Shown here: positions 1 to 43,278 of the stretch, piece by piece | Position numbering within the stretch: position 1 is the first letter of the stretch | Layout of the letters: every line of letters begins with the position of its first letter | From: Nemertoderma westbladi | Taxonomy: Eukaryota > Animalia > Xenacoelomorpha | DNA length: 64,000 bases | Direction: 5' to 3' | Assembly (NCBI GenBank): GCA_032718475.1 | Contig: JAUCBJ010009045.1 | Span: 1 to 64,000 of the forward strand | Program-made: the position numbers and the translations under genes | The notes under the pieces: model-generated | Database searches by the model: none | What the model saw: the letters and a program-made list of their open reading frames with translations, nothing else | Told to the model about the DNA's origin: nothing

Positions 1-738
1 TTAAAACCACGTGCCACTGTAACCTGCCCTTTCCCTAAATTGAGAATTTAACATTGAGGCGGATATTAATTCGCCAAAGCGGGTTTGGCATCTAGCGAAC
101 GATAATTCTTGCAATCTTTGAACGCCTATATCTCAGATATTGTTACATATTTGGAATCCTTGCAACGCAAGCTTTCTAATGATATGATAAAATTACGACT
201 AATGTGAAGAATGGCCACAATATGGAGGGTACGATTTCGCAAAAGACACTTTTATAAAACGCCGATAAAAAAAATTTAAAGGCAAAATCGAAGATTCCCG
301 GCTTCCTGGGTCAACCACGGTGAGTTGAACTAGTTGTGTTTAAAATTTCAAGCAATGATAAAGATTTGTAGAAAAATCTGGGGGGGGGGGGGGGGTGGGG
401 TTCCGTGTCATTAGAAAATGACACTATATTAAGGGTCATGGTGTATGGACGCAATGGACTGCAACTGGACGCAATAAAGATTCATCCCTCTTCAGGGGAA
501 AGTCGACGCAAATAACAGATGATTACTCTCAAAAATAAAACTAACCTATTCTATTGTGCTTAGTTTATTGTTTTGGTTAAAATAACGTGCCACTCTAACC
601 TGCTCCATCCCCTAAATTGAGAATTTAACATTAAGGCGGGATATTAATTCGCCAAGGCGGGTTTGGCGTCCAGCTCCCCCCCCCCCCCCTGTCTCCTCCC
701 CTTAGTGTGTAATGAATAGCTTTTCATTCCCATTAATA

Positions 739-925
739 CGGTGGCCCGCAAGTGCCAGCGCTGCATTCACATACACCACATAATTTGCCTCTGAAATGTG
801 TGTGCAGAGCGGCTTGAAAATATCATGTCGCGGCATGATATTTTCATGCCGCTCCTACACACACATTTATGAGGAAAATCATGTGGTATGTATTTGAGTG
901 CAGCGCTGGCACTTGTGGGCCACCG
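739..925. mobile_element. Foldback MITE, near-perfect hairpin, TA-flanked (Tc1/mariner-type)
   Basis: TA|CGGTGGCCCGCAAGTGCCAGCGCTGCA ... TGCAGCGCTGGCACTTGTGGGCCACCG|TA. The arms pair over nearly the whole element. It lies about 160 bp upstream of the SelL ATG. Confidence 0.8.
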
Positions 926-1082
926 TACATTAAACTGTTGCTGTTGTTTTAACTATTTACATTAAGATTCAACGAGCACACGAGTGTTAGCAAGATTGAC
1001 ATCATACTGGTGAACGGTACGCGGTAGTTACGGTACACTGTGTGTGTACTGCTGTACTGCGCCTCTCTGGTCTGCATCTGCA

Positions 1083-1967
1083 ATGGATGATGTTTTAATA
1101 GTTGAATTAGATAAATTATACGATAGTATTGATGCGACACTCAAGACATTCGATAATTTATCCTCAACAGAACAACGTCAGCAAGTCGGCAAAATATTTA
1201 GTCTGCATTCAAAGTACGCCGACTGCCTGTCTGCGTGTGGATTTAAAACTCGCTCTAGTCTGGAGGAACACATTCAGAAGCGGTTTTCTAACTTGGAGAT
1301 TCAACGTGTTTTTAATAATTGGTTAGATATCGAAAGTGAATGGAACCACCTTTTGGCAGAAATTGAGAAAGAATTCGTCAGCGAAGTAGCCAATTCCCCA
1401 CTGGCCAAGGCAGGTGACACAATCCCTATGAACTTAACTTTAAAATATTGCAACGACCAACGCGAAATTATCGTCCAAGATTTACTCTCGGAAGTTTGTT
1501 CCAACAGCGATACGCGGTTTATTTGGTTGGTATTCCTACGCCATCTCGCTTGACTACCCTGACGAATGCATGTAGGTAGACTTATGTCCCGGGCAGGAGA
1601 CCTGGTGACTAAGTCTATCCGTGTAGTCATAGTTTCTTTTGCAACGCCCACCTGGGCACAACGTTGGGCTAGCGATGTTGGTTATTCCGGGGTTTTAGTC
1701 TGCGATACTGGCAGACAGCTGTACAACGCTTTGGGGCTGTATACCTCTAGCAAAGACACACTAAATGTCGAGTCTATTGTGTTTTACGCGGAACAGTTGG
1801 TTGTGGGCAATCCGCCTTTGCCGCCCTACCACGATAAGGACGACCCCTCGCAAATGGCAGGCGATTATATCGTTAACCGGTTTGGCGAGATATTTGTGGC
1901 CCATCCATGTCTGGCCGGGGTTCAAGATAGAGTGAATGTCGACTATGTTTTAAAGTCATTAGCATAA
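1083..1967 (+). CDS. SELENOL: Selenoprotein L (thioredoxin/AhpC-TSA-like fold, UxxU motif), 294 aa, intronless CDS, Sec at TGA 1551-1553 and 1560-1562
   Basis: ORFs 1044-1553 and 1566-1967 share a frame and are separated only by TGA CTA CCC TGA CGA, giving WLVFLRHLA-U-L-P-U-RMHV. This matches the SelL signature (LRHxxULPUxxH). The downstream part (VVIVSF, DTGRQLYNALGL, DDPSQMAGDYIVN) fits the AhpC-TSA_2/PRXL2 fold. First ATG at 1083; SECIS downstream. Confidence 0.92.
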
Positions 1968-2130
1968 TTTTTGTCTGGTTATTTCCAAAATGTCATTATT
2001 GCGTTTAATACCGTTCCGTTCAGCCGTTTCTTGGTTAGGCCTAGGCCTACCAAACTAGCAACGCGATGTGTAAGACATCTGGAAGGAAGGTTTGTGGCGT
2101 GACGTTACTGCAGCTCGTCCGGCCCTGGTT

Positions 2131-4416
2131 GGGGACTTTAGATCCCATGGGACTTTAGATTTCACCTCGTAAAAAACGAAAGTTTAGATCCCGGAGAAAT
2201 TACCTAACCCACCACTTTGCAACCTCACCCACCACTTTGCAACCACACCCACCACTTCGCAACCTCACCCACCACTTTGCAACCACACCCACCACTTTGC
2301 AACCTCACCCACTACTTCGTAACCTCACCCACCACTTCGTAACCTCACCCACCACTTTGCAACCACACCCACCACTTTGCAACCTCACCTACCACTTTGC
2401 AACCTCACCCACCACTTCGCAACCTCACCTACCACTTCGCAACCTCACCTACCACTTCGCAACCTCACCCACCACTTCGCAACCTCACCCACCACTTCGT
2501 AACCTCACCCACCACTTCGTAACCTCACCCACCACTTTGCAACCTCACCCACCACTTTGCAACCTCACCCACCACTTTGCAACCTCACCCACCACTTTGC
2601 AACCTCACCCACCACTTCGCAACCTCACCCACCACTTCGTAACCTCACCCACCACTTCGTAACCTCACCCACCACTTTGCAACCTCACCCACCACTTTGC
2701 AACCTCACCCACCACTTTGCAACCTCACCCACCACTTTGCAACCTCACCCACCACTTCGCAACCTCACCCACCACTTCGTAACCTCACCCACCACTTTGC
2801 AACCTCACCCACCACTTTGCAACCTCACCTACCACTTTGCAACCTCACCTACCACTTTGCAACCTCACCTACCACTTTGCAACCTCACCCACCACTTCGC
2901 AACCTCACCTACCACTTCGCAACCTCACCTACCACTTCGCAACCTCACCCACCACTTCGCAACCTCACCCACCACTTCGTAACCTCACCCACCACTTCGT
3001 AACCTCACCCACCACTTTGCAACCTCACCCACCACTTTGCAACCTCACCCACCACTTTGCAACCTCACCCACCACTTTGCAACCTCACCCACCACTTCGC
3101 AACCTCACCCACCACTTCGTAACCTCACCCACCACTTCGTAACCTCACCCACCACTTTGCAACCTCACCCACCACTTTGCAACCTCACCCACCACTTTGC
3201 AACCTCACCCACCACTTTGCAACCTCACCCACCACTTCGCAACCTCACCCACCACTTCGCAACCTCACCCACCACTTCGTAACCTCACCCACCACTTCGT
3301 AACCTCACCCACCACTTTGCAACCTCACCCACCACTTTGCAACCTCACCCACCACTTTGCAACCTCACCCACCACTTCGCAACCTCACCCACCACTTCGT
3401 AACCTCACCCACCACTTCGTAACCTCACCCACCACTTTGCAACCTCACCTACCACTTTGCAACCTCACCCACCACTTTGCAACCTCACCCACCACTTTGC
3501 AACCTCACCCACCACTTCGCAACCTCACCCACCACTTCGTAACCTCACCCACCACTTCGTAACCTCACCCACCACTTTGCAACCTCACCCACCACTTTGC
3601 AACCTCACCCACCACTTTGCAACCTCACCCACCACTTTGCAACCTCACCCACCACTTCGCAACCTCACCCACCACTTCGTAACCTCACCCACCACTTCGT
3701 AACCTCACCCACCACTTTGCAACCTCACCCACCACTTTGCAACCTCACCCACCACTTTGCAACCTCACCCACCACTTTGCAACCTCACCCACCACTTCGC
3801 AACCTCACCCACCACTTCGTAACCTCACCCACCACTTCGTAACCTCACCCACCACTTCGCAACCTCACCTACCACTTCGCAACCTCACCTACCACTTCGC
3901 AACCTCACCTACCACTTCGCAACCTCACCTACCACTTCGCAACCTCACCCACCACTTCGTAACCTCACCCACCACTTCGTAACCTCACCCACCACTTTGC
4001 AACCTCACCCACCACTTTGCAACCTCACCCACCACTTTGCAACCTCACCCACCACTTTGCAACCTCACCCACCACTTTGCAACCTCACCCACCACTTCGC
4101 AACCTCACCCACCACTTCGTAACCTCACCCACCACTTTGCAACCTCACCCACCACTTTGCAACCTCACCTACCACTTTGCAACCTCACCTACCACTTCGC
4201 AACCTCACCTACCACTTTGCAACATCACCCACCACTTTGCAACCTCACCTACCACTTCGCAACCTCACCCACCACTTTGCAACCTCACCCACCACTTCGC
4301 AACCTCACCCACCACTTTGCAACCTCACCTGGAACCTAACTCACCAATACGTGTACTTTGCCTAAATCTAACTGTTAATGAAATAATTTATAAATGGGAT
4401 CTAAAGTCATGTGCCC
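2131..4416. mobile_element. Non-autonomous element with short subterminal inverted repeats enclosing an expanded tandem array
   Basis: GACTTTAGATCCCAT (2134-2148) is inverted at ATGGGATCTAAAGTC (4394-4408). CCTAAC-type motifs flank the internal array. Exact ends are uncertain. Confidence 0.55.
2206..4330. repeat. 20-bp minisatellite (AACCTCACCCACCACTTTGC)n, about 105 copies, with a 140-bp higher-order pattern
   Basis: Read directly. Unit endings TTGC/TCGC/TCGT recur in a 7-unit cycle in the central part. Confidence 0.97.
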
Positions 4417-4767
4417 TACCGATAGCGGTAGACGCAGACATTGAAATGGCCATAACAAGGTGCGTTGTTCGATTATTATTTTATTTGAATTAAGTACAAA
4501 CTTTTCATATTTCGTTGTTTCTAATAGCTTGTGCCTTGTCCTTGTGGTGTATTTTTCGAATTCAAAAAATTTCACCAGTGGCTTTTTACATGGGTGACTA
4601 AATAATGAATCACTATTAATGTGTAATTACTAGCCAGTTAACATAATTCCGTAATACTTTAGTAATTATAGTAAATCAAACTTGTTTTGTATTTTCCTAT
4701 TTTGTCACTTTGTAGTGTATAGTTTTTTATAGTTTATCCAATTTTGCCCCCATTTAATATTGATTTT

Positions 4768-4841
4768 TATATTCTCTCTGATGACGTTGTCTGCTGAAAC
4801 TGACAGTAATTCAGATTGCTTATAACTGATTGGAGAGTATA
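4768..4841 (+). promoter_or_regulatory. Eukaryotic SECIS element (form 2) for the SelL mRNA
   Basis: Helix I TATATTCTCT(4768-77)/GGAGAGTATA(4832-41). Core A-TGAC(4781-85)/TGAT(4827-30) forms the non-Watson-Crick quartet with tandem G.A pairs. Helix II is 11 nt (GTTGTCTGCTG/TTGCTTATAAC, with three mismatches). Apical AAA at 4797-99 and mini-helix CTGA/TCAG. AATAAA follows at 4918-4923. Confidence 0.85.
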
Positions 4842-5221
4842 TGATTGTCTATTGTCGTTTAAGTGAATTTTGTTAATGTTAATTTGTTTCTGACATATTG
4901 TATGTTCGTTTAAATATAATAAATATGTGTTGGTTTAAGGTTAAAGCATACTCAATATCACTTTACTGATTGTATATATCCATTGGGATTGTTTGGCTAA
5001 TGGTAATATGTTGTTTTATAGGGTTCTAGTTTGGCAAGGAAAACACTCGTTCGTAAAATTAGTGAATAATATTCACCTTCCAAGTTGTAATAAAATTAAT
5101 AGCATTGCTGTCAAGTCCGTTGAGTTATTATTTATAAACAGCTAAACATTTATCAAAAACAACCAATTATCATTTATTTAACATTTTCATGAAAACGTTG
5201 ATTATAACTTGACTTGCCTGT

Positions 5222-8200
5222 ATGAGCGACTGTGTTGTGAGACTGATATCATCAGACGGGCCGGCAGTAACAAACCATGCGGCGTGTGTGATCAACAACT
5301 ATCTCTACGTCCACGGTGGGGTCATCCAAGGAAGGTCAACTGAACCTGTCTGCTGGTTCAGCCGGTTCAGTTTCGCGTCCAATGCTTGGGAGAACCTTTC
5401 TGGAATATCAGGTTGGCATTTGTAATTTAAATATAAATTTTATTATCTTTCACTCTATGATTTCATCTGGGATAATATTGACAACAACAATTTAGGATTG
5501 TGATGTTTATCCATCCATATCATATAATAATTAAAATGATTGACACCGATCAATTGTTGATAACTACTAGAAAACACATTAATTTTAAGATGGACAGCAT
5601 TATTATTGTAAGTTGGTAGTCGCTCATTCCTTTACCAACACGGTATTTATATTTTCTATCGATATATTTATTATGTATGCTGGACATTTTATACTCACCC
5701 ATATTTTGAATTAATATTTGATTAGGTTCACCCAAGTTGAGTCATCACGCAGTTTATAGCCAGTCGGATCGCTATTTAGTCGTTGTTGGTGGTTGGAACG
5801 GTAGAGCTCGGACCTCGTGCGTCTACGTCTTCGATACTTCGAATTCGAAGTGGCTCAATAATATTTCTACAACCGGGTTCCCTGTAGGAGCAGGTACGTC
5901 ATTGGCTAATCGTACAGGTACGTCATTGGTTAGTCGTACAGGTACGTCGTTGGCTAATCGTACAGGTACGTCATTGGCTAGTCGTACAGGTACGTCATTG
6001 GTTAATCGTACAGGTACGTCATTGGCTAATCGTACAGGTACGTCATTGGCTAGTCGTACAGGTACGTCATTGGCTAGTCGTACAGGTACGTCATTGGCTA
6101 GTCGTACAGGTACGTCATTGGCTAATCGTACAGGTACGTCATTGGCAAGTCGTACAGGTACGTCATTGGCTAGTCGTACAGGTACGTCATTGGCTAATCG
6201 TACAGGTACGTCATTGGCTAATCGTACAGGTACGTCATTGGCTAGTCGTACAGGTACGTCATTGGCTAATCGTACAGGTACGTCATTGGCTAATCGTACA
6301 GGTACGTCATTGGCTAATCGTACAGGTACGTCATTGGCTAATCGTACAGGTACGTCATTGGCTAGTCGTACAGGTACGTCATTGGCTAGTCGTACAGGTA
6401 CGTCATTGGCTAGTCGTACAGGTACGTCATTGGCTAGTCGTACAGGTACGTCATTGGCTAATCGTACAGGTACGTCATTGGCTAATCGTACAGGTACGTC
6501 ATTGGCTAGTCGTACAGGTACGTCATTGGCTAATCGTACAGGTACGTCATTGGCTAATCGTACAGGTACGTCATTGGCTAATCGTACAGGTGCGTCATTG
6601 GCTAGTCGTACAGGTACGTCATTGGCTAACCGTCCAGGTACGCCATTGGCTAATGAATCGTACAGGTACGCCATTGGCTAATCATACAGGTGCGTCATTG
6701 GCTAACCGTACAGGTACGTCAATGGCTAACCGTACAGGTACGTCAATGGCTAACCGTACGGGTAAATCATTGGCTAACCGTACAGGTACGCCATTGGCTA
6801 ATGAATCGTACAGGTACGCCATTGGCTAATAAATCGTACAGGTACGTCATTGGCTAACCGTACAGGTACGTCAATGGCTAACCGTACAGGTACGTCATTG
6901 GCTAATCGTACAGGTACATCATTGGCTAACCGTACAGGTACGCCATTGGCTAATGAATCGTACAGGTACGCCATTGGCTAATAAATCGTACAGGTACGTC
7001 ATTGGCTAACCGTACAGGTACGTCAATGGCTAACCGTACAGGTACGCCATTGGCTAATCGTACAGGTGCGTCATTGGCTAGTCGTACAGGTACGTCATTG
7101 GCTAACCGTACAGGTACGCCATTGGCTAATGAATCGTACAGGTACGCCATTGGCTAATCATACAGGTGCGTCATTGGCTAACCGTACAGGTACGTCAATG
7201 GCTAACCGTACAGGTACGTCAATGGCTAACCGTACAGGTAAATCATTGGCTAACCGTACAGGTACGCCATTGGCTAATGAATCGTACAGGTACGCCATTG
7301 GCTAATAAATCGTACAGGTACGTCATTGGCTAACCGTACAGGTACGTCAATGGCTAACCGTACAGGTACGTCATTGGCTAATCGTACAGGTACATCATTG
7401 GCTAACCGTACAGGTACGCCATTGGCTAATGAATCGTACAGGTACGTCATTGGCTAATCGTACAGGTACGTCATTGGCTAATCGTACAGGTGCGTCATTG
7501 GCTAGTCGTACAGGTACTTCATTGACTAACCGTACAGGTACGCCATTGGCTAATGAATCGTACAGGTACGCCATTGGCTAATCATACAGGTGCGTCATTG
7601 GCTAACCGTACAGGTACGTCAATGGCTAACCGTACAGGTACGTCAATGGCTAACCGTACAGGTAAATCATTGGCTAACCGTACAGGTACGCCATTGGCTA
7701 ATGAATCGTACAGGTACGCCATTGGCTAATAAATCGTACAGGTACGTCATTGGTAACCGTACAGGTACGTCAATGGCTAACCGTACAGGTACGTCATTGG
7801 CTAATCGTACAGGTACGTCATTGGCTAACCGTACAGGTACGCCATTGGCTAATGAATCGTACAGGTACGCCATTGGCTAATCATACAGGTGCGTCATTGG
7901 CTAACCGTACAAGTACGTCAATGGCTAACCGTACAGGTACGTCAATGGCTAACCGTACAGGTACGTCAATGGCTAACCGTACAGGTAAATCATTGGCTAA
8001 CCGTACAGGTACGCCATTGGCTAATGAATCGTACAGGTACGCCATTGGCTAATAAATCGTACAGGTACGTCATTGGCTAACCGTACAGGTACGTCATTGG
8101 CTAACCGTACAGGTACGTGATTTTTTCGTGATTTGACAAAGATTTTGCTGTTGTATTTGCCATCACGTTTGTAGTTGTAGATATATTGACGACTGTTGCA

Positions 8201-11200
8201 TCAGTTACCTGTAAATTAATGTTTATAAATGTATCAGTTTGTAAATTTAAATCGTAAATGTTACAAAGAAATAATTATAAAATAAACTATTTCATATGAT
8301 GGTGAAAAAAAGCAGGCCCGTAGCCAGGGGGGGTTCGTTGGTTCTAACGAACCGCCCTTTTGAGAAAAGTGCCCTTTTATACGAACACATGTTTGGGAAA
8401 TGTGCCCTTTTTATAATCACCTTTTTGAGAAATATTATCCTCACCTATTCGTAATAGTGTCCTTTCCGGCAAAGAAAATATTAAAGTTACATTAGCAGCT
8501 AGAACAGTTAGGATTCACATTATCCCAGCGCTACTGATGAGGCCTGTTAGGCCGAAACGTACGTATAGCGCTGGTTCAACCCCCGGTGACGCGCTTTCTC
8601 ATTTTTTCCACTTCTGAACAAAACCATTTAAATTATTCCAGTGCCAATTTGCTTTAAAAAGTACCCCACACATTTCGTATCGGGCTTCAGATTATCCACC
8701 ACCCCCACCCCCCCCGCCCTATTCCTACCTTAATTTGCTCTGGATAAACCAATGGATATTTGTCATTATTTAGACAAATTAAAAAAATGCAGTTTTTTGA
8801 AAAAAACGAACCGCCCTTTTAAAATCCTGGCTACGGGAGCTTGAAAAGTTGTATCAGTTAGATGTATTATTGGTTGCTGTTTGAGTGAGTAGTGGTTGGT
8901 TGAGATATCACTTCTATACCGGCTCATCTTTATTTCCCTCAACATTGAGTTTCACGAAATACCAGAATACATTATACACATTATAAAATAAATATTAAAA
9001 AACAAACAATACTACACCATGACCCGTATTACAGGGTGTTCGCCAGAATATGTTACGGTTTCATTCTTGAATGACTCTCCTGCGCTTTGACGAAGGTTGT
9101 TCGTTTTGGTTCCGATTGAAGGTCAGGGTGTATAGTCTTGGACTTTGGTGTAATGCCATCGTTGCCATAGCAGCGCTTTAAAATGAAAAGGTTCTAAAAA
9201 AAGGTTCAAACATTAGTTTGAATTAGTTACTGTTGTTAGGTACCAAGTTATATTCCAGACTGACTTATTTTACTATAACAAGTAGTAAGGTTGTGGTTGT
9301 TTTGCGGTTACTTTAAAATAGTCTTGTATAGGTTTCTATTTTCGTGTTATTTTCGTGGTTTTTTGTTGTTATTTTAATGGTGGGGTGGTGTAACAATGTT
9401 TACAGGTGATCAGAAAGTGTTTATAATCAAAACTTATTAGAGACTGGTTCATCTAAGCTAACTGCTTTACAGTTTGGCCATGAATATCCAAACCAATACA
9501 AAACCAAGGCTTAAGAAGGTCCAGGCTGTTGGTGGCTCCCACATCGAAGTATACTGACTTTTAGTCTATAGCTCCACTTTAATTTGTTTGTTTTAAACTA
9601 GTGAAATTCTCTAACTAACTGTTAAGGCATTTAAAAATGAAATTAATTAATTAGAATTAAAAAGCTTGAGTTAATGCAATATAGTGGTACTTATATTTAA
9701 TTGTCGAGCTGTGAAGTAAAAACCATCAAGGTTTTTACTTCACTGCTTGACAATTAAATAAAAGTACCACGAAATTAATTAACTTCGTATCAATATCATA
9801 TTAATATCACATTGATGATCATATCACAATAATGGATTGTTTTTAAGCGTGGCTATGGCAATGATGGCATTCGAGAACCACATCATGTTTTATACCAAAG
9901 TCAAAGTTTATATTCTGGGTTTCAATTGGAGCCGGAATGAACAATTTTCTTCAAAGTGCGGGGGAGTTATTGGGGAATCAAACCGTAGCGTGTTCTGACG
10001 AACACCCTGCATTTCCTGATGACACGGACCCCCCCCCCCCCAAATTTTTCTACAGATCTTTATCATATTGCTTGAAATTTGAAACACAACTAAATTTTAA
10101 TTACACTCACCGTCGATGTCCACATGAAGCCGGAATTTTCGATTTTGATTTCGGTAAATACACAAAATTCATTTTAGTTAGCATCATCATCCACTCCATT
10201 TAGCTTTTTATTTACATAATTTATAATTATATATGATATATATTGTATTACGTATTCTATATTTTATTTACCGTTACAAAGGTGTATATTTTCCTATCTC
10301 TTTTATCCGTTGGATAATTAAACGCTAATTATTATTATTAAATATACAACATTCTTGAAAAAAAAAAAAAAAAAAAACAGGTACATCATTGGCTAACCGT
10401 ACAGGTACGCCATTGGCTAATGAATCGTACAGGTACGCCATTGGCTAATCATACAGGTGCGTCATTGGCTAACCGTACAGGTACGTCAATGGCTAACCGT
10501 ACAGGTACGTCATTGGCTAGTCGTACAGGTACATCATTGGCTAACCGTACAGGTACGCCATTGGCTAATGAATCGTACAGGTACGCCATTGGATAATCAT
10601 ACAGGGGCGTCATTGGCTTACCGTACAGGTACGTCAATGGCTAACCGTACAGGTACGTCAATGGCTAACCGTACAGGTACATAATTGGCTAACCGTACAG
10701 GTACGCCATTGGCTAATGAATCGTACAGGTACGCCATTGGCTAATAAATCGTACAGGTACGCCATTGGCTAATCGCACAGGTACGTCATTGGCTAACCGT
10801 ACAGGTACGTCAATGGCTAACCGTACAGGTACGTCATTGGCTAATCGTACAGGTACATCATTGGCTAATCATACAGGTGCGTCATTGGCTAACCGTACAG
10901 GTACGTCATTGGCTAATCGCACATGTACGTCATTGGCTTACCGTACAGGTACGTCAATGGCTAACCGTACAGGTACGTCATTGGCTAATCATACAGGTAC
11001 ATCATTGGCTAACCGTCCAGGTACGCCATTGGCTAATGAATCGTACAGGTACGCCATTGGCTAATCGTACAGGTATGTCATTGGCTAACCGTACAGGTAC
11101 GCCATTGGCTAACCGTACAGGTACGTCATTGGCTAACCGTACAGGTACGTCATTGGATAATAGTACAGGTACGTTATTGGCTAATCGTAAAGGTACGTGG

Positions 11201-14200
11201 TACGTCATTGGCTAACCGTACAGGTACGCTATTGGCTAATCTTACAGGGTACGTCATTGGCTAATCATACAGATCCGGGGTACGTCATTGGCTAATCGTA
11301 CAGGTACGTCATTGGCTAACCGTACAGGTACGTCATTGGCTAATAGTACAGGTACGTCATTGGCTAATCGTAAAGGTACGTAGTACGTCATTGGCTAACC
11401 GTACAGGTACGCTATTGGCTAATCTTACGGGGTACGTCATTGGCTAATCGTACAGGTACGTCATTGGCTAACCGTACAGGTACGTTATTGGCTAACCGTA
11501 CGCGTACATGGTACGCTATTGGCTAATCGTACAGGTACGCCATTGGCTCATCGTACAGGTACGTCATTGGCTAATCGTACAGGTGCGTCATTGGCTAATC
11601 GTACAGGTATGTCATTGGCTAATGAATCGTACAGGTACGCCATTGGCTAATCGCACAGGTACGTCATTGGCTAATCGTATAGGTACGGGGTACGTCATTG
11701 GCTAAACGTACACTGTACAGATACGGGGTACGTGATTGACTAATCGTACAGGTACGTCATTGGCTAATCGTACAGGTACGTCACTGGCTAATCGTACAGG
11801 TACGCCATTGGCTAATCGTACAGGTACGTCTTTGGCTAATCGTACAGGTACGTCATTGGCGGCAAATCGTACAGGTACGTCATTGGCTAATCGTACAGGT
11901 ACGGGGTACGCCATTGGCTAATCGTACAGGTACGTCATTGGCTAATCGTACAAGTACTACTACTACTACTAGGTCGAGCGAACTCGGACAAGATATCGTA
12001 CAAGTACGTCATTGGCTAATCGTACAGGTACGCCATTGGCTAATCGTACAGGTACGTCATTGGTTAATCGTACAGGTACGTCATTGGCTAATCGTACAGG
12101 TACGCCATTGGCTCATCGTACAGGTACGTCATTGGCTAATCGTACAGGTGCGTCATTGGCTAATCGTACAGGTATGTCATTGGCTAATGAATCGTACAGG
12201 TACGCCATTGGCTAATCGCACAGGTACGTCATTGGCTAATTGTATAGGTACGGGGTACGTCATTGGCTAAACGTACACTGTACAGATACGGGGTACGTGA
12301 TTGGCTAATCGTACAGGTACGTCATTGGCTAATCGACAGGTACGTCACTGGCTAATCGTACAGGTACGCCATTGGCTAATCGTACAGGTACGTCATTGGT
12401 TAATCGTACAGGTACGTCATTGGCTAATCGTACAGGTACGTCATTGGTTAATCGTACAGGTACGGGGTTCGCCATTGGCTAATCGTACAGGTACGTCATT
12501 GGCTAACCGTACAGGTACGTCATTGGCTAATCGTACAGGTACGTCATTGGCTAGTCGTACAGGTACGTCATTGGCTAGTCGTACAGGTACGTCGTTGGCT
12601 AATCGTACAGGTACGTCATTGGCTAGTCGTACAGGTACGTCGTTGGCTAATCGTACAGGTACGTCATTGGCTAATCGTACAGGTACGCCATTGGCTCATC
12701 GTACAGGTACGTCATTGGCTAATCGTACAGGTACGTCATTAGCTAATCGTACAGGTACGTCATTGGCTAATCGCATAGGTACGTCATTGGCTAGTCGTAC
12801 AGGTACGTCGTTGGCTAATAGTACAGGTACGTCATTGGCTAATCGTACAGGTACGCCATTGGCTCATCGTACAGGTACGTCATTGGCTAATCGTACAGGT
12901 ACGTCATTGGCTAATCGTACAGGTACGTCATTGGCTAGTCGTACAGGTACGTCGTTGGCTAATAGTACAGGTACGTCGTTGGCTAATAGTAACGCGTTCA
13001 TAGTATATTATCTTTCTTGACTGATTATATTTCATGAAGTTGAAATAATAAAAACTTTATTGATTAGGAAGCCAGAAAAAAATTTAAACTCATAGCTGCA
13101 GACGTTTTGGTTTAATGTTCACAAAAAAGACTTAAATCCCCCGCTTTTAACCCCTTAGGAATTTTTCTCGGTCGCCGTAAAATAAGGTTCAACTTTCTTA
13201 GCGCAGATTGCTGCTCGATTTTAAAAAATACCCATTGCACGGTTATCTTGTACGTGCTAGCTAGTAGATTACGCATAATATTATCAACATTATTAGGTTT
13301 GTCTTCACATAGCTGTGTACCACTGCGAAATGACGAAGCCCTTATTATTGGTCGGGAAGGTGGTCTTAGAACACAGCGTCGCTATGGAAACTCGTTTTTG
13401 CTTAAAGGATCTCCCAGCAATGGTCGCTATAGTTACACCGAGTACCCAATAGGTAATTGGCCACCAATTTAAGACGTCCCGGGTTATCGGGTAATTATTT
13501 AGGAATTAAAATTTGTGTTCTTATTTATTTAGAAAATGATCTTGGTATTGAGGATTAACACTGCCTGAAGATTTGAGAACCAAGTTTGGGGGATGTAAAT
13601 ATTGTCAACCAACTATATCAGCTATTATGTGTTTTTTGTTTACCTGAGATTACAATAACCCACTTTTTTTAATTAGATATATATAGATATTTTGTTACGT
13701 ATTTGTGATAATTATTTTGCATTGGAATTTATTATTATACATCCGCTCAACAATTAGATATAAACTATTATGAAATCGTTATTTTTCACACCATATTAAT
13801 TATTGTCTCATTCTATTATGGCAGGTGTTTCTTCCCGATCCGGTCACACGTGCAATACCTTATCGGACGGTAGGAACTCTCGCGTCCTCTTAGTCGGCGG
13901 CCGATCCGACAAACTAACCGAACAGTTCTCCGTACCCGCCGCTAAGGGCGTCTCCGGTACTGGTCGTATCCACGAGAAATTCCGAGCGTTAACTCGTCGC
14001 TCCAGACTGGCTGATAGACCCCCACGTTGTAGAGCACACCACGTAGCGGCGAGTGTAGGTAATCTACTCGTACTGCATGGTGGGGACCCGTTTGGGTGCG
14101 GTGTGAGGGTGGAACCCAGCGCCGACTGGTGGCTGTACTGCGCATCGAGTAACAGTCTGGGTTGGTACAGACTGGATACAGTCGGACCCACTGTGCGACG

Positions 14201-14309
14201 TAGTGGCCACGTTGTAGCGATTTACGGGGATTCCATAGTGATTCAAGGTGGTATAACTGATTCTTATGGTAAAGTTAGTGGCGAATTGTACATTCTGGAA
14301 CTAAAGTAA
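5222..14309 (+). CDS. KLHDC9: Kelch domain-containing protein 9-like, 4 exons: 5222-5411, 5726-5893, 13297-13452, 13825-14309 (332 aa)
   Basis: Three GT-AG introns, all phase 1, join to 999 nt in frame. Kelch GG motifs (YVHGG, VVVGGWNG, LLVGG, VLHGG, VIQGG) and KLHDC9-like stretches GSPKLSHH, GLSSHSC, GREGGLRTQRRYG, SRSGH. AATAAA at 14356. Confidence 0.85.
5891..8119. repeat. 24-bp minisatellite (CAGGTACGTCATTGGCTAAYCGTA)n, first block, starting at the KLHDC9 exon 2 donor
   Basis: Read directly. 28-bp variants (TAATGAATCG) appear after about 6650. Confidence 0.97.
8313..8843. mobile_element. MITE with CAGGCCCGTAGCCAGG / CCTGGCTACGGG termini (hAT-like)
   Basis: Terminal inverted repeats at 8313-8328 and 8826-8837. 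AACGAACCGCCCTTTT occurs near both ends. Confidence 0.6.
8525..8574 (+). ncRNA. Minimal type I hammerhead ribozyme
   Basis: CCAGCGCTA-CTGATGA-GGCC-TGTTA-GGCC-GAAAC-GTAC-GTA-TAGCGCTGG: perfect 9-bp stem I, intact CUGAUGA and GAAA core, stem II GGCC(T)/(A)GGCC, palindromic stem III (ACGTACGT) and GUA cleavage triplet at 8563-8565. Confidence 0.9.
9032..10009. mobile_element. Tc1/mariner-type non-autonomous element with about 150-bp degenerate TIRs, inserted into another MITE
   Basis: TA|CAGGGTGTTCGCCAGAA ... TTCTGACGAACACCCTG. The TIRs extend to about 9183 and 9841. It interrupts a copy of the TACACCATGACCCG...GACACGGACCCCC family and contains an internal hairpin at 9684-9770. Confidence 0.7.
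10377..12990. repeat. 24-bp minisatellite, second block (same family as 5891-8119)
   Basis: Resumes directly after a poly(A) run at about 10358-10377; more degenerate in the middle. Confidence 0.97.
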
Positions 14310-15959
14310 ATCATTTCAGGAGGTTAAGGGTTAATCTTTATCTGATATATGAATTAATAAATATTACACCATCTTGAATAGTGTCTTAATTGAATCCGAC
14401 TACAAACGTCAACCCTGCAATAATTGGGGTCAGAGTAAAACGCTGATCCGGATTCTACATTTAACATTGTCCCTACGGAAGTCGATTTTTTTTACATTTT
14501 TATAACTCCCAAAAATAAAACTATAACCTGTTCTATTGACTTTAGTTTATTGTTTTGGTTAAAATAACGTGCCATTGTAACCTGCTCCTTTCCCTTAATT
14601 GATAATTTTGGAATCCGGATCAGGATCCGCGTTTTACACCTACCCCAATAATTGTACATTTGTAATTTTACACTTGGTTATTCAACGTCATTATTACAGT
14701 ATTTATTTTTTGTTATTATATAGTGAAAACTGAAAAGTAAAATGATTGTTAAAGTTTAACTACGAAATTCTTAAGGAAACCCGAAGACTCCCCTCTCTCA
14801 CAATCCTCTCACTATTCATTAAACTCTCTTTATTTAACAAGTAATCCCGCTTGGTGGCGCACTATTTACTTAGCGCTACACCCCTGACAACGTCCAGTAG
14901 GGTAGCAACCTCAGGGAGTACCGGTACAACCTGGGACAACCTGGGATTATCATAGGAGGGGATTTACTTCCTGCTTTATATCCCGCGAGTAAAAACAGTC
15001 TGAGTTTTTGCGCGCCAAAAGTCTAACAACTACGGGGCTATGATTGGCTGTTATCGGGTTTATTTAGAAGATAAATCTTCACATTTTCAACCAATTACAG
15101 CGCGTGAATTAAATACAATAACATTGAGTTTAAACGCCCCCAGCCAATCACTTGGGCAAACATTTATTGTCGTTTTTCGAATATACGCGTTATATTAGCC
15201 AATCATAGTTCGCAAATTAATTTCATATTTTTTTGAGTTATTATGCGTCCCGTATAGTTGAGGGGGTTTAAGCGCGCGAAAAGGTTTTTACGTGAATTGA
15301 TTATCACAAATTTAAACACATTATTTGCAGGAATGTCTAATAGCATTATACCAGTAAGACCAGGAAACAAACACCCATTACTGGTAAAGTTATAATAGAA
15401 AGTTAAAGCGCATGAAACAGACACCCATTACTGGTAAAGTTATAATAGAAAGTTAAAGCGCATGAAACAGACACCCATTACTGGTAAAGTTATAATAGAA
15501 AGTTAAAGCGCATGAAACAAACTCATTCGTAATCTTCTAATAAATAGTGAGTTTGAAAGTTCTAATATTATTTCGATCTGTCTTTATGTAATTCCATCAT
15601 AAAATGTTTATATAAAAATTAATTTTAATTTCCACAGTTCAACCCACAAATTCGAGAGTTTCCTTGACGGCCACAATGACGTCACTTTAATACACGCCAC
15701 CATTGCCATATGGTAATAATAATAAGAATAACTTCAGTATAATATTAAGGGGTGTTAAGGGTTGCCACGGGTGTGCAATCAAAAATATTAATTCAATGAA
15801 ATAACTACAGAATAACTACATCAGATGTATTACTGAGCTAGTTAAATATTTTCGCGACGAAATCAAATTACCCAATAAATTGTTTATACAGTATTACTTT
15901 AACATTTCGAACACAATCTTAGTATATTGACCTAATAAACCCCTCCTTAAACCCATACT

Positions 15960-16421
15960 TACACCATATCCCAGAATATAGTGTCGTAATTCAGTGAAAC
16001 AACCACCCGGATCCGGATCCGGATTCTACATTTAACATTGTCCCTACGGAACCTAATATTTTTATAACTCCCAAAAATAAAACTATAACCTGTTCTATTG
16101 TGTTTAGTTTATTGTTTTGGTTAAAATAACTTGCCACTGTAACCTGCTCCTATCCATTAATTGATAATTTTGGAATCCGGATCCGCGTTTTACACCTTCC
16201 CCCACCAACCCCCGCTCCTAAAAAAATTATTCTACAAATCTTAATAAATGATATTATATGAAATTCGAAACAGCTATAGTTTCATCTCCCTCCTCCTTGC
16301 TCGGTGAGTCAAAAATTTTATTTTCGCTTTCATCGCTACTGTACAAGCGTTTGATCATGATTACAATTGATAAAAAAATTGGATGGCCGTGTTACGACAC
16401 TATATTCCAGGACATGGTGTA
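15960..16421. mobile_element. TA-flanked MITE (CACCAT...ATGGTG termini) carrying an inserted dispersed repeat
   Basis: TACACCATATCCCAGAATATAGTGTCGTAA is inverted at TTACGACACTATATTCCAGGACATGGTGTA. Internal 16010-16200 matches 14445-14640 and, more loosely, 520-660. Confidence 0.6.
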
Positions 16422-19200: not shown

Positions 19201-19406
19201 GTGTACGGTTTATGTTATGAGATGCTTATTATTTGTTGTTTTGATTATGGTCTCATAATATATTACTGTATGGATAATTAGCATATTTAATAATATCTTA
19301 ATTAGAATATCGTATTTCATTGTTGTAGTAGTTGTGTTTAATGTAAACATATAACTTTTATTGTGCACCCATCCACAGTCAGTAGCCTACATAAATATAG
19401 TTCAAA

Positions 19407-22400
19407 ATGAATGGTCTGTTTGGAAGAATATTATTGGTGGGTGTCTTGGTGGTGATGTTCCCAACACATTCACTAAGTTCTGGTACGAAATCCTGCAAAG
19501 TGTCTTTGAGAAATCTAAAGATCGCATCGTTTAACATCCAAATACTCGGCGAAAATAAAATGTCCCATACAGACGTTGTTGATGTCCTGGTAAAGGTGGG
19601 TATTACGTAATTTATTTTGGTATGCATAACAATAAATGTCAACTTACAAAGTGCAAACCGGTTCCTCATAGTTACACTGTGAGCGTTGATAACAATTAAG
19701 TACATTAGTACTGGGGGTTTTCACTATATACCTGTAATTTGTTTTTGTATAAAATAGGAATAGAATGAGGTTTATTTTTTTCGATAGATATTGAATCGAT
19801 ATGATATCGTGATGATTCAAGAGATAAGGGATAGTTCTCCAAATGAAGCCGCTATCCACAAACTTTTAGATAAAGTGAACGGATACGGTATTTTAAGGAG
19901 GTTCTATACGAGCGCAGTCTACAAAATGGTACTGGGTCCTAGATTGGGACATTCAAACTCCAAAGAACAGTACGCCTACTTATACAGGTGAGAAAATATA
20001 TGTTTGGTGATTAATTACTGTTTACATTATACTAATGCATAAGTTAACACATTACGGTGCACTAATGTGTAAAGTTACATATTACGGTGCACTAATGTGT
20101 AAAGTAACATATTACGATACACTAATGTGTAAAGTAACACATTACGGTGCACTAATGTGTAAAGTAACACATTACGATGCACTAATGTATAAAGTAACAC
20201 ATTACGGTGAACTAATGTGTAAAGTAACACATTACGATACACTAATGTGTAAAGTGACACATTACGGTGCATTAATGTGTAAAGTAACACATTACGGTGC
20301 ACTAATGTGTAAAGTAACACATTTCGGTGCACTAATATGTAAAGTAACACATTACGGTGAATTAATATATAAAGTAACACATTACGGTGTACTAATGTGT
20401 AAAGTGACACATTACGGTGCACTAATGTGTAAAGTAACACATTTCGGTGCACTAATGTGTAAAATAACATATTACGGTGTATTAATATATAAAGTAACAC
20501 ATTACGGTGCTCTAATGTGTAAAGTAACACATTACGGTGCTCTAATGTGTCAAGTAACACATTACGGTGCAATAATGTGTAAAGTAACACATTTCGGTGT
20601 ACTAATGTGTAAAGTAACACATTGCGGTGCTCTAATGTGGAAAGTAACACATCACGGTGCTCTAATGTGTAAAGTAACACATTACGGTGCACTAATGTGT
20701 AAAGTAACACATTACGGTGCTCTAATGTGTAAAGTAACACATTACGGTGCTCTAAAGTGTAAAGTAACACATTACGGTGCACTAATGTGTAAAGTAACAC
20801 ATTACGGTGCACTGTAATGTGTAAAGTAACACATTACGGTGCTCTAATGTGTAAAGTAACACATTACGGTGCACTAATGTGTAAAGTAACACATTACGGT
20901 GGACTAATGTGTAAAGTAACACATTACGGTGCTCTAATGTGTAAAGTAACACATTACAGTGCAAAAAGTAGCACATTACGGTGCTCTAATGTGTAAAGTA
21001 ACACATTACGGTGCTCTAATGTGTAAAGTAACACATTACGGTGCACTAATGTGTAAAGTAACACATTACGGTGAATTAATATATAAAGTAACACATTACG
21101 GTGCACTAATGTGTAAAGTGACACATTACGGTGCACTAATGTGTAAAGTAATACATTACGGTGAATTAATATATAAAGTAACACATTACGGTGCACTAAT
21201 GTGTAAAGTGACACATTACGGTGCATTAATGTGTAAAGTAACACATTACGGTGCTCCAATGTGTAAAGTAACACATTACGGTGCTATAATGTGTAAAGTA
21301 ACACATTACGGTGCACTAATGTGTAAAGTAACACATTACGGTGCTCTAATGTGTAAAGTAACACATTACGGTGCACTAATGTGTAAAGTAACACATTACG
21401 GTGCTCTAATGTGTAAAGTAACACATTACTCTAATGTGTAAAGTAACACATTACGGTGCACTAATTTGTAAAGTAACACATTACGGTGAATTAATATATA
21501 AAGTAACACATTACGGTGCACTAATGTGTAAAGTGACACATTACGGTGTACTAATGTGTAAAGTAATACATTACGGTGAATTAATATATAAAGTAACACA
21601 TTACGGTGCACTAATGTGTAAAGTGACACATTACGGTGCATTAATGTGTAAAGTAACACATTACGGTGCTCTAATGTGTAAAGTAACACATTACGGTGCT
21701 CTAATGTGTAAAGTAACACATTACGGTGCACTAATGTGTAAAGTAACACATTACGGTGCTCTAATGTGTAAAGTAACACATTACGGTGCACTAATGTGTA
21801 AAGTAACACATTACGGTGCTCTAATGTGTAAAGTAGCACATTACGGTGCTCTAATGTGTAAAGTAACACATTACGGTGCTCTAATGTGTAAAGTAACACA
21901 TTACGGTGCACTAATGTGTAAAGTAACACATTACGGTGAATTAATATATAAAGTAACACATTACGGTGCACTAATGTGTAAAGTGACACATTACGGTGCA
22001 CTAATGTGTAAAGTAATACATTACGGTGAATTAATATATAAAGTAACACATTACGGTGCACTAATGTGTAAAGTGACACATTACGGTGCATTAATGTGTA
22101 AAGTAACACATTACGGTGCTCCAATGTGTAAAGTAACACATTACGGTGCTATAATGTGTAAAGTAACACATTACGGTGCACTAATGTGTAAAGTAACACA
22201 TTACGGTGCTCTAATGTGTAAAGTAACACATTACGGTGCACTAATGTGTAAAGTAACACATTACGGTGCTCTAATGTGTAAAGTAACACATTACTCTAAT
22301 GTGTAAAGTAACACATTACGGTGCACTAATTTGTAAAGTAACACATTACGGTGAATTAATATATAAAGTAACACATTACGGTGCACTAATGTGTAAAGTG

Positions 22401-25400
22401 ACACATTACGGTGTACTAATGTGTAAAGTAATACATTACGGTGAATTAATATATAAAGTAACACATTACGGTGCACTAATGTGTAAAGTGACACATTACG
22501 GTGCATTAATGTGTAAAGTAACACATTACGGTGCTCTAATGTGTAAAGTAACACATTACGGTGCTCTAATGTGTAAAGTAACACATTACGGTGCACTAAT
22601 GTGTAAAGTAACACATTACGGTGCTCTAATGTGTAAAGTAACACATTACGGTGCACTAATGTGTAAAGTAACACATTACGGTGCTCTAATGTGTAAAGTA
22701 ACACTTTACGGTGCTCTAATGTGTAAAGTAACACATTACGGTGCATTAATGTGTAAAGTAACACATTATGGTGCTCTAATGTGTAAAGTAACACATTATG
22801 GTGCATTAATGTGTAAAGTAACACATTACGGTGCTCTAGTGTGTAAAGTAACACATTACGGTGCATTAATGTGTAAAAGAAGTTGATGGAAATTTTATTT
22901 GCAAACATCGAAAAGACCGTTGCCAAAGATTCTAACTTTGAAGTTTTATGTCTCCTGGTTACTATGGTCGAACAATTTTTAAAGGCGTTCTAGAATTAGT
23001 TATAAACGCCTTGCATCTGATACACAGATTAGCTTTCATTTCACAGCGAAAGTTATTATTATAATATGACAGCGATAGCTATGGAAATTTACTCCGTTGC
23101 TATTATATTGAGTTGTATGTATTATTAAGAGAATGTAAATTTTCTTCACGGTGATTTTTGAGGACATTTTTCTGAAGTGCTGTTTAGTTGTGAAAATGAC
23201 ATGCGATTGTCAAAACTGCTCACCACATGTAGTCTCTTCTACAAAGTGCAAAATAAAATTAAAAGCTACATAAAGTGAACCTGTGTAGGGCTACACAGTA
23301 CTCACTTGTTGCTACGCATTTAAGACTTTACAGAGCCTTATCGTGGCTTTACTCGGATCATGGCACTGCAAAGTACTATCGCTACGTACAACTGTACTCT
23401 ACAGTTACACACGTAGTAAATATGAGGCCTTAATAGTTATTAAGTAAATTAGAGTTGAGCTTTTAATGAAACTGTAATTAACTTAATGAAATTTGGTTCA
23501 ACCCCCAGTGAAAAAAGAGAAAACGAGGAAGCACGTCACTGGGGGTTGAACCAGCGCTATACGTACGTTTCGGCCTATCAGGTCCCATCTTTACCGCTAA
23601 CCAGTTCAGCCACTTGCCGCTGACACTTACTCTCCCATCTAATCCACCCCAATTTAACAGGCAGTCTTAAGTTGCATATCCTATCTCTAACAGCGGACCT
23701 ACCAGACTCAAGTATGTTAGAGTGGAACAGGAGGAAATTACAAATAAATAAATATTAATATATAGATATATAAATGCACCCCAGTGACGTCCTTCTCATT
23801 TTTTCCATTTCTGAACAAACCATAATATTTGATTATAAATAGTTAGGTATTACCAGGACTTACTACTATAATTATATACTATAATACTACTATAATAATT
23901 CTCTGTACTGTATTACTAACTGTATTACTAACTGTATTACTAACTGTATTACTAACTGTATTACTAACTGTATTACTAACTGTATTACTAACTGTATTAC
24001 TAACTGTATTACTAACTGTATTACTAACTGTATTACTAACTCTACTTATAAGTGATTTCTCAATAATTGTCTGTTAATTTATAAATTACTTCGGTTCTAA
24101 GCCCCTATATTCTTAACTGATAGTTATTATTTTGTGTACCGCTACTGTTTATTTTATAGATCGGATGTCGTCATGGTGAAAGATTCATATACATTCAATG
24201 ACGAAACCAAAGTCTTTCAGCGACCGCCCCTGGTTGCCCGTTTCTATGCAAAGGGTTTCCTTCTCAACGATTTCTTCATTATAGGAATTCACACTCAGCC
24301 GTCCAACGCGCCCAATGAGATCAACGAATTGGTTAAAGTTTACGACGAGGCCGTTCAAAAATTCGGTATAAAGGTGATCCAACAGGCGTGATAAGTTCAG
24401 CTGCCACAAAAATAATAATTTATCTAATAATAAGTTGGAATACTGTAGTTCATTTGTTCTGTCGGCTTTAAAGCACAAACTACTTGGTGATTTGCAAGTG
24501 CAGTGGAGGTGGGCACAGTGCGTTGTGTTCAGGTGAGAGCTGGAGGTACTGTGGGTTAGGGAGGGCGGTGGGTATCAGGTAGGGCCGTCGCAGCAATGTA
24601 TCACTTTGTTGTACAATGTTACTGTAAAAAGGATAATAATAACTATAATCAGCTGCCTACAGGATTTGTATATATTTTTTATTAGGAAGGCATTATAATG
24701 GGTGATTTTAATGGCGATTGTAGTTACGTTACTGCTGTGGAATCCTCTCAAATGAACTTGCGTAGCGATCAGCGATTTCATTGGCTAATTCATGACGACA
24801 TTGACACTACTACTGGACACAGTGATTGCGCTTACGATAGGATTGTAGTGGCAGGTAAAACTAGATTCTAAAGCCAAATGCTGTATATTGGTATTTATAT
24901 TCATATGAACATTCAATTTACTTTAAATTTTAAACCGCCACTAATTGAATGCCACCCCAATTTATATGATTTACATCCAAAAAAAAAATTTAGCACCAAA
25001 TATAATTTTTTGTAGCACCAATTTACATCCCCCAATTTTGAATATCTCTCTCACCAAAAACAATTATTCATCCCCCAAAAACAATTATCCATCCCCCAAA
25101 ATCATTTTTTCATCTCCCAAAAACAATTATTCAATCTCCCTAAAATAATTACTTGTCAACCAAAAACAATTCTTCCAGCACTGTCAAATATTTAATGGAA
25201 AATTTAATTATACAAATTCATTCATTGTTTATTTCCATAAATATAATAAATATAATTTATTCCGACGATCCTTGGGTGAGTACAAAGACCCAATTATAAA
25301 GACCTGAATAATCTTGTAACATGTTATCTTTCGTTTATTGTTTTGGTTCCCCCAACACGCCTTTGTAACCTTTTCCTTTACTAACCTGCTCCTTTAAATG

Positions 25401-36072: not shown

Positions 36073-36511
36073 GAGGTCAAAATTCCTTATCAATTCGTTT
36101 GCGGGATAAATAAAGTTATATTACGCACTCCACACGTTAGGAAATAATTATGTTGGTTATTGTTTTAGAAGGGTTGGAAACTTTGAAATCACAATAAGTT
36201 GACGTTTTTATATAAAGCTGGGGGGGGGGGGGGGGGGGGGGGGGGTAATAGCTGAGTCGAGTTTTGCCACGGATCTACTTTGCATCAAAAAAGGACAAAT
36301 TGTGAGTTAGTGGACTAGTCAAAACTGGTGTATAAATGTAAGTTTCAAGTTTTTATGTAGTTGAGTTTCCAACCCTTAGTGTTGTTAGTAGTCCTTACTG
36401 AAGTTCGCCATGCTGATAGTTTAGGTGTAAAATAAATGAAGTAGAAGGATACTTAAGTAATCTGTAGATTCACGTTAGTTTTATTAAGTGCAGCTGACGA
36501 AGACTTGTTTT

Positions 36512-42930: not shown

Positions 42931-43278
42931 CTAGTTTCCTCCACTCGACTGCGTTGCCCAGACAACAATAATAATTATTAACACGACAACCACACCTCCC
43001 AATATTAACATCATTTTCATATTTTTCCACCAGTATTTTTTCTTTAACTTCCCAGCGGATGTTTCAAACTTCGATGCTCCCGCCTGCAACGCGTCTGCTC
43101 TGTCATCTAGTTCGGAAAGCTTCTGATCTCGTTCGAGAACTCGATCCACGTTGACGCGCATAATATCTACAACTTCGTCGACCTGGGCCTGGGTCTGCTG
43201 TAGACGCTTCGAGCCTCCTTGCCCAGGCTGTTGGACAACAACTGGTTGACCTTGACTAGCTTGAGGATACGAAGACAT
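42931..43278 (-). CDS. VAMP: Synaptobrevin / vesicle-associated membrane protein (VAMP1/2/3-type R-SNARE), 115 aa, CDS in one exon
   Basis: [61 protein letters not shown] followed by a C-terminal TM helix. A splice acceptor (TTGCAG) lies 9 nt upstream of the ATG. Confidence 0.97.

What the first reader, a model, noticed from the sequence alone, without database searches (positions are those of the whole stretch)
5891..12990. Intron built from about 200 tandem mini-intron-like units that begin at the real splice donor
Seen: the satellite starts exactly at the KLHDC9 exon 2 donor (GCAG|GTACGT). Each 24-nt unit reads GTACGT-CATTGG-CTAAY-CGTA-CAG, that is a 5' splice site, a branch-point consensus and a 3' CAG, so every junction is CAG|GT like a recursive splice point. 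The unit is a multiple of 3 and the frame stays open for about 32 units (to about 6650). Inference: use of a downstream donor would insert (GTSLA[N/S]RT)n in frame between kelch blades. The spliceosome must choose among about 200 near-identical donors, or remove the 7.4-kb intron stepwise. Caveats: the units lack a polypyrimidine tract and 24 nt is below normal minimal intron size.
Basis: partly seen in the sequence, partly recalled or inferred. Interest (0 to 1): 0.78.

Follow-up and report, generated by a model that had tools for sequence, protein, structure and literature searches.

The report
Splice-donor minisatellite in KLHDC9 intron
In an animal's KLHDC9-like gene, a 24-base piece holding an exon's last three bases and its splice signal is repeated about 190 times in the next intron; this repeat type is already known from lancelets and human genes, and the first signal is likely the one used, so the copies are likely not tiny introns.

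Summary
The array is real and starts at the exon 2 donor of an intact four-exon KLHDC9-like gene. It is not continuous: about 190-195 units lie in two blocks covering 65% of the 7,403-nt intron, split by a 2.25-kb poly(A)-ended insert. The unit is the exon's final CAG plus 21 intron bases, so CAG|GT at each joint follows from copying the donor. The 'branch point' is missing from 15 of the first 32 units and is half of a weak hairpin. All 181 joints have fewer T's upstream than all 8 acceptors compared. The 32 in-frame donors are confirmed, but an open frame is expected 62% of the time and the far block is open too. An insert would sit directly at the near-invariant GLSSH motif (0 of 102 homologs have one). 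This is a donor-spanning ('mirage') minisatellite like human F7 intron 7, where the first donor is used. Donor use here is untested, because no RNA run was available. The scan already noted at least 10 such arrays elsewhere in this genome.

The parts
5222..5411 (+). KLHDC9-like exon 1 (coding part from the ATG)
   Evidence: tblastn and spliced model; Kelch_1 E 6e-8
5726..5893 (+). KLHDC9-like exon 2 (168 nt, phase 1-1); its last three bases CAG are the start of the first repeat unit
5894..13296 (+). Intron 2, 7,403 nt, AG|GT at both ends
   Evidence: spliced model restores the family motif GAG-LSSH across the joint
5891..6637 (+). Proximal block: 31 pure 24-nt units in the exon's frame and stop-free; 32 potential in-frame donors at 5894-6638
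6638..8118 (+). Higher-order block (about 300-nt period) mixing 24- and 28-nt units; the first 28-nt unit shifts the frame, stop at 6679-6681; five AATAAA in 28-nt units
8119..10377 (+). Non-array insert of about 2.25 kb ending in ATTAAA (10337) and A20; likely retroposed, with an 8-10-nt register duplication at its ends; holds nested inverted-repeat elements at 8317-8837 and 9032-10009
   Evidence: sequence, inverted repeats, matches elsewhere in the window; the unit pattern continues across it; retroposition is inferred
10377..12490 (+). Array resumes: higher-order pattern, then degenerate units of 23-38 nt and longer
12491..12991 (+). Distal block: 21 donors at exact 24-nt spacing, stop-free in the unit frame, same unit types as the proximal block
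12992..13296 (+). Unique 305-nt intron tail with the real acceptor
13297..13452 (+). KLHDC9-like exon 3
   Evidence: tblastn E 1e-7 to 7e-12 with 8 of 9 homologs
13825..14309 (+). KLHDC9-like exon 4 to the stop codon

Best explanation
This is a minisatellite whose 24-base unit is the last three bases of exon 2 plus the first 21 bases of intron 2, likely expanded in place by slippage and unequal exchange, and the spliceosome likely uses the first donor and removes the whole 7.4-kb intron in one step. Shown: the gene structure, the unit's make-up, the block structure and the interrupting insert. Inferred: (1) a 24-nt segment spanning the donor was duplicated, perhaps helped by its weak hairpin; (2) it grew from the middle, leaving similar unit types at both ends and a 300-nt higher-order repeat inside; (3) a poly(A)-tailed element and two inverted-repeat elements inserted later; (4) the most upstream donor wins, as in human F7, with at most minor leak to the next copies; (5) transcripts from donors beyond unit 32 would carry an early stop and would likely be degraded. 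The array is likely tolerated rather than functional.
For: Array register starts at the exon's CAG, ends one CAG short of a full unit and runs into unique intron. All three introns of this gene have YAG|GT donors, so CAG|GT needs no special cause. The unit has no dispersed full copy elsewhere in the window. Joints look unlike acceptors: at most 6 T in the 15 nt before the YAG in 181 of 181 joints against at least 7 in 8 of 8 acceptors; 63% of 140 decoy YAGs score above the median joint. Open frame expected by chance (0.62), and the distal block, which cannot be under frame selection, is equally pure and open. Donor 1 restores GLSSH, the second most conserved of 326 five-residue windows, with no insertion there in 102 homologs; motif spacing is 33-37 aa in 108 of 108. 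Donor 1 is the most accessible of 32 in folding with spans of 100 and 200 nt. Precedent: F7 intron 7 uses only the first donor with up to 12 copies, LMNB2 and PDGF likewise (PMC1557585); lancelet mirages do not disturb splicing (PMC3087553).
Against: No RNA evidence for this locus. In human 6-16 and CBS the next two donors are used as well (as cited in PMC1557585). The donor matches the U1 consensus at 8 of 9 positions, and in F7 perfect-consensus downstream sites did compete. The real intron 2 acceptor is the weakest of the 8 (leave-one-out -2.5), below the best array joint (-0.7), and the 8 acceptors are my own calls from a small set. Accessibility gives donor 1 only rank 9 of 32 at a 40-nt span, and the real exon 3 donor is as buried as the decoys. 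The hairpin is modest: 2.9% of end-fixed shuffles and 13 of 333 background GT-starting 24-mers fold as well, and 19 of 150 shuffles in the three-unit test. The unit holds only 3 exonic bases, so an origin by insertion of a ready-made repeat at the donor cannot be excluded from one genome. F7 results come from mammalian cells and at most 12 copies.
Confidence: 0.72

Rival explanations
1. Alternative donor ladder: a sizeable share (over 10%) of transcripts use donors 2-32 and encode KLHDC9 with 1-31 extra GTSLA(N/S)RT octapeptides in the loop before blade 3, as in human 6-16 and CBS but in frame.
For: 32 donors give a full ORF. Donors are identical and strong (8 of 9 U1 matches). 6-16 and CBS use the two nearest extra donors (cited in PMC1557585). 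The site is a loop between blades in the homolog model (G116, strand starts at 121), and in-frame products would escape nonsense-mediated decay.
Against: 0 of 102 homologs have an insertion at this position and GLSSH is 94-100% conserved. The open frame is at chance level and is matched by the distal block. In F7, in-frame downstream sites were not used.
Confidence: 0.17
2. Removal in jumps: some CAG|GT joints act as dual or recursive sites, using the CTAAY of the previous unit as branch point, so the array is cut out in pieces of three or more units rather than one unit at a time.
For: The branch A of the previous unit lies 32 nt before a joint (8 + 24), inside the 19-37-nt range quoted in PMC10078293. 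CTAAY is in 143 of 177 intervals. Tandem AG|GT sites are used as both donor and acceptor in human UBC, and such sites tend to be weak (PMC10809524). The real acceptor is weak.
Against: All 181 joints are poorer in T than all 8 acceptors and score like decoys. Fly recursive sites have unusually strong 3' splice sites and lie in very long introns (PMC6110457). The 2.25-kb insert and 305-nt tail must be removed conventionally anyway. Single 24-nt steps would need a 16-nt lariat loop; introns that small are cited for the ciliate Stentor (PMC9505925), while the three introns of this gene are 314, 372 and 7,403 nt.
Confidence: 0.07
3. The array harms or silences the gene: AATAAA signals in the 28-nt units or the poly(A)-tailed insert cause early cleavage, or long double-stranded RNA blocks splicing, so little full mRNA is made.
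For: 17 AATAAA/ATTAAA hexamers in the intron, 6 of them inside array units. The array folds far better than shuffles as RNA (z -5.3 for 5850-6040).
Against: All four exons are intact and conserved, with one terminal stop. U1 binding is known to suppress early polyadenylation (recalled, not from a call), and here there are many U1 sites upstream.
Confidence: 0.04

Closest known systems
Human F7 intron 7 37-bp VNTR, and the 6-16 (IFI6), CBS, LMNB2 and PDGF arrays it cites (Borensztajn et al. 2006, PMC1557585; read parts 1-4 of 6 of the text; the cited primary papers not seen)
   Same: First unit spans the exon-intron boundary with only a few exonic bases (4 in F7, 3 here), so identical donors repeat down the intron.
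   Different: 5-26 copies there, about 190 here. The unit here is in frame and stop-free for 31 copies, ends in CAG, has a weak hairpin and a higher-order structure, and is interrupted by an insert. Donor use was measured there and not here.
Lancelet 'mirage' minisatellites (Adh3, globins BflGb6/BflGb9, troponin C, PGBD5; PMC3087553 and PMC3902484, passages only; supplements not read)
   Same: Tandem duplication of an exon-intron boundary in an invertebrate; many units keep AG/GT signals; concerted evolution inside the cluster with distinct boundary units.
   Different: The globin and PGBD5 clusters have 2-7 units and carry longer exonic parts; here about 190 units with only 3 exonic bases.
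Dual-specific splice sites in tandem repeats, human UBC (PMC10809524; part 1 of 7 and passages)
   Same: AG|GT at each unit boundary and a unit length divisible by 3.
   Different: UBC units are coding ubiquitin monomers (228 nt, recalled) and use of the sites as both donor and acceptor is shown; here units are intronic, 24 nt, and acceptor use is not shown.
Recursive splice sites of Drosophila long introns (PMC6110457, passages)
   Same: Central AG/GT motif.
   Different: Few, isolated sites with very strong 3' splice sites in very long introns; here about 180 adjacent copies with decoy-level 3' sites in a 7.4-kb intron.

Membership tests
Donor-spanning ('mirage') minisatellite | Tandem array with a unit of minisatellite size | tested here: met
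   Period 24, 90.5 + 104 copies
Donor-spanning ('mirage') minisatellite | First unit spans a real exon-intron boundary | tested here: met
   Array starts at 5891, exon ends at 5893; boundary fixed by homology, not by RNA
Donor-spanning ('mirage') minisatellite | Splice signal reiterated in many units | tested here: met
   183 AG|GT joints in the arrays
Donor-spanning ('mirage') minisatellite | mRNA made mainly from the first donor | not testable with these tools
   No RNA run listed for this gene; no protein above 46% identity among those retrieved
Donor-spanning ('mirage') minisatellite | Copy number varies between alleles | not tested
Recursive splice sites | AG/GT motif at the site | tested here: met
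   but a necessary result of copying a CAG|GT donor
Recursive splice sites | 3' splice site as strong as or stronger than ordinary acceptors | tested here: not met
   181 of 181 joints have at most 6 T against at least 7 in 8 of 8 acceptors; median score below most decoys; small reference set
Recursive splice sites | Saw-tooth nascent coverage, intermediate junctions or internal lariats | not testable with these tools
   No RNA run listed
Minimal (tiny) spliceosomal introns | Organism has a class of introns of about 25 nt | tested here: inconclusive
   The other two introns of this gene are 314 and 372 nt; no genome-wide intron set available
KLHDC9 family (host gene) | Kelch propeller with the family motifs GGWxG, GLSSH, GREGxLRxQRR, SRSGH and best matches to KLHDC9-named proteins | tested here: met
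   best match 40% over 333 aa to a protein named KLHDC9 (P0180); no tree was built

The most novel reading that the evidence does not exclude
The array is a working splice dial: identical, strong, in-frame donors give a ladder of KLHDC9 proteins with 1-31 octapeptide inserts, and the CTAAY of each unit serves as branch point for the joint 32 nt downstream, so the intron is cut out in variable jumps, an intronic counterpart of the UBC dual-site array and an intron-birth intermediate caught in progress.
Probability: 0.08. Interest if true: 0.65.

Novelty: new member of a known kind. Interest (0 to 1): 0.22.

Why it matters
As a single locus it matters little: donor-spanning minisatellites are described in human and lancelet genes, and the scan has noted larger ones in this genome. 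Two points keep some value. The copy number (about 190) is far above the 5-26 copies in the published human cases, so it would test whether first-donor choice holds at that scale outside mammals. And because the first 31 extra donors are in frame, any leak would survive decay and be countable, which makes this locus a clean readout of donor choice among identical sites. The broader question, why this genome seeds so many arrays at splice sites, needs a genome-wide count and not this one window.

Tried and rejected
RNA test: no RNA holder was listed for 13297-14340, so no reads could be laid; this is no evidence either way. No whole genome is held. Protein searches with exon 4 and exon 2 for longer proteins found nothing at E 0.001; the profile search listed 120 of 153 hits; the best identity to the model was 46% among 150 matches out of 280 stored proteins, so no transcript-derived protein of this species was seen. 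Two retrieved proteins hold GTSLA by chance in unrelated contexts. Conserved intron position could not be read from truncated homologs. Rfam: no match in 1-16000. Dispersed element as source of the unit: no full copy outside the arrays in this window. Selection for an open frame: rejected by the distal-block control and the 0.62 chance rate. Hairpin masking as the reason for first-donor use: inconclusive. First spliced model had exon 2 two bases off and was corrected. One search stopped with an error after its first outputs and was completed; 21 of 123 homologs outside 280-420 aa were left out of the alignment and 15 of 123 lacked one motif for the spacing count. ESM Atlas gave no usable hit for the putative exons next to the 38-nt and 68-nt arrays. 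Scan look-ups by sequence, by place and by words were blank. Paper searches for a genome-wide study of such arrays in invertebrates and for recursive splicing in tandem repeats (one paper) found no description of a case like this size; the library lacks most subscription papers.
Full report
What was checked. I checked the array, the gene, each splice-like feature against chance, the effect of an insert on the protein, and the literature. RNA could not be examined.

The gene. Four exons (5222-5411, 5726-5893, 13297-13452, 13825-14309) join into one 332-aa ORF, 31-40% identical to 8 of 8 aligned homologs. Exons 1, 2 and 4 match kelch families in Pfam. Relatives carry the name KLHDC9 in molluscs, a brachiopod, a sponge and sharks; the best match is 40% over 333 aa. 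The organism is an animal; I did not place it further. All three introns are phase 1 and have AG|GT at both ends. Intron 2 runs from 5894 to 13296 (7,403 nt). These boundaries rest on homology, not on RNA.

The array. TRF finds two blocks, 5891-8122 (90.5 copies) and 10377-12991 (104 copies), period 24. They cover 4,844 nt, 65% of the intron. Cutting at unit starts gives 190 segments, a few holding two units. The order is: 31 pure 24-nt units; a higher-order repeat of about 300 nt that mixes 24- and 28-nt units and continues across the insert; a degenerate stretch; and a final block of 21 donors at exact 24-nt spacing with the same unit types as the start. The insert (about 8119-10377) ends in ATTAAA and A20, has an 8-10-nt register duplication at its ends, contains two inverted-repeat elements and shares pieces with four other places in the window. 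It is most likely a retroposed fragment with later insertions (inferred). The window is rich in such arrays: 42 TRF rows, 16 distinct arrays analysed.

Why each unit looks like an intron. The array starts on the exon's last three bases and stops one CAG short of a full unit before unique intron sequence. The unit is therefore CAG plus 21 intron bases, and CAG|GT at each joint follows from copying a donor. The branch-like CTAAY is in 143 of 177 inter-donor intervals, the full stated pattern in 67 of 177, and CTAAY in only 17 of the first 32. Such a motif occurs in 1.9% (CTAAY) to 16.7% (YTRAY) of 3,227 background 18-nt windows, and 7 of the other 15 arrays carry CTRAY at 0.7 or more per unit on one strand; the 68-nt array has AG|GTR, CTRAY and YAG on one strand. 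The unit is also an imperfect inverted repeat: GTACG pairs with CGTAC and ATT with AAT, so the 'branch point' and the bases before the AG mirror the donor half. This hairpin is modest: 1 of 200 dinucleotide shuffles folds as well, but 2.9% of end-fixed shuffles, 13 of 333 background GT-starting 24-mers and 19 of 150 shuffles in a three-unit test do.

Are the joints acceptors? The branch A would be at +16 and 8 nt before the AG. The A of the previous unit is 32 nt before a joint, within the 19-37-nt range quoted in PMC10078293 (passage), so geometry does not exclude longer jumps. The tract argues against it. In the 15 nt before the YAG, 181 of 181 joints have at most 6 T and 8 of 8 acceptors that I called in this window have 7-11; 63% of 140 decoy YAGs outscore the median joint. 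Against my reading, the real intron 2 acceptor is the weakest of the eight (leave-one-out -2.5; best joint -0.7), and pyrimidine counts overlap. Fly recursive sites have 3' splice sites stronger than ordinary ones (PMC6110457, passage). Introns of 15-16 nt are cited for Stentor (PMC9505925, passage), but this gene's other introns are 314 and 372 nt.

The in-frame block. Of 195 AG|GT sites in the intron, 32 (5894-6638) give a full-length ORF; all later ones give an early stop or a frameshift. An open frame is expected with probability 0.62, 6 of 16 arrays have a period divisible by 3, and the distal block is equally pure and stop-free although stops upstream remove any selection on it. So the open frame is no sign of function. 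An insert would sit at Gly120. But it opens GLSSH, the second most conserved of 326 five-residue windows, and 0 of 102 homologs have an insertion after any of residues 114-129. Spacing from GGWxG is 33-37 residues in 108 of 108.

Which donor is used? Not tested here. Folding ranks donor 1 first of 32 in accessibility at spans of 100 and 200 nt but ninth at 40 nt, and the real exon 3 donor is as buried as the decoys, so this is weak. The nearest experiment is human F7 intron 7 (PMC1557585, parts 1-4 of 6 read): a 37-bp unit with 4 exonic bases, in which only the most upstream donor is used with up to 12 copies, the next one takes over if it is mutated, and only perfect-consensus sites compete. 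The same paper cites 6-16 and CBS, where the next two donors are also used, and LMNB2 and PDGF, where they are not. Lancelet 'mirages' are reported not to disturb splicing (PMC3087553 and PMC3902484, passages; their supplements with the alignments were not read). Human UBC shows that tandem AG|GT sites can act as both donor and acceptor (PMC10809524, part 1 of 7 and passages), which keeps the jump model alive at low odds.

Earlier notes of this scan. Ten unchecked notes describe splice-site arrays in other genes of this genome, up to about 2,100 copies, several reporting first-donor use in assembled RNA. I took the term 'mirage' and two paper leads from them and read those passages. I did not check their RNA claims, and they are not counted as evidence.

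Verdict. Observation partly confirmed. The mini-intron reading is not supported; the multiple-donor reading is right in outline and already has a known class. Best explanation: a tolerated donor-spanning minisatellite with first-donor splicing (0.72). Rivals: in-frame donor ladder (0.17), removal in jumps (0.07), gene impaired (0.04). New member of a known kind; interest 0.22.

Noticed in passing
window 1083-1967 (+): Intronless peroxiredoxin-like (AhpC-TSA) ORF with two in-frame TGA codons as U-x-x-U. It looks like selenoprotein L (the UxxU label is recalled; seen as a listing only). No SECIS reached the Rfam threshold.
   Followed up: partly
window 36513-38491 (+): 38-nt array (52 copies) whose unit may be 27 exon bases plus 11 intron bases at a weak TAT|GTAGTA donor after a putative exon at about 36468-36539: a possible second mirage. 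The gene was not identified.
   Followed up: partly
window 59188-64000 (+): 68-nt array (over 70 copies, runs off the window) with GAG|GTGAGT, CTAAT and YAG in each unit, following a 110-aa open frame; a real donor is not shown.
   Followed up: partly
window 8119-10377: Poly(A)-ended insert with nested inverted-repeat elements (12-nt arms at 8317/8837; 89-nt arms at 9032/10009 around a 47-nt-arm hairpin); family not identified.
   Followed up: partly
window 51279-55605 and 56046-56277: 42-nt and 62-nt arrays share a palindromic core and a CCAAT motif; the 42-, 30- and 20-nt arrays fold better than 149 of 150 shuffles.
   Followed up: no
window 19400-24870 (+): DNase I-like gene by its motifs (name recalled; only a weak Exo_endo_phos match), with 30-nt and 12-nt arrays inside one intron that do not start at a splice site.
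   Followed up: partly
window 42931-43281 (-): Synaptobrevin/VAMP ORF without introns over the whole Pfam domain (E 2.5e-34).
   Followed up: no
window 25844-27199 (+), 28073-28675 (-), 32803-34338 (+), 56912-57304 (-): Retroelement-like ORF pieces (by recalled motifs), a THAP9-type transposase fragment, a C2H2 zinc-finger ORF and a leucine-rich-repeat-like exon.
   Followed up: no
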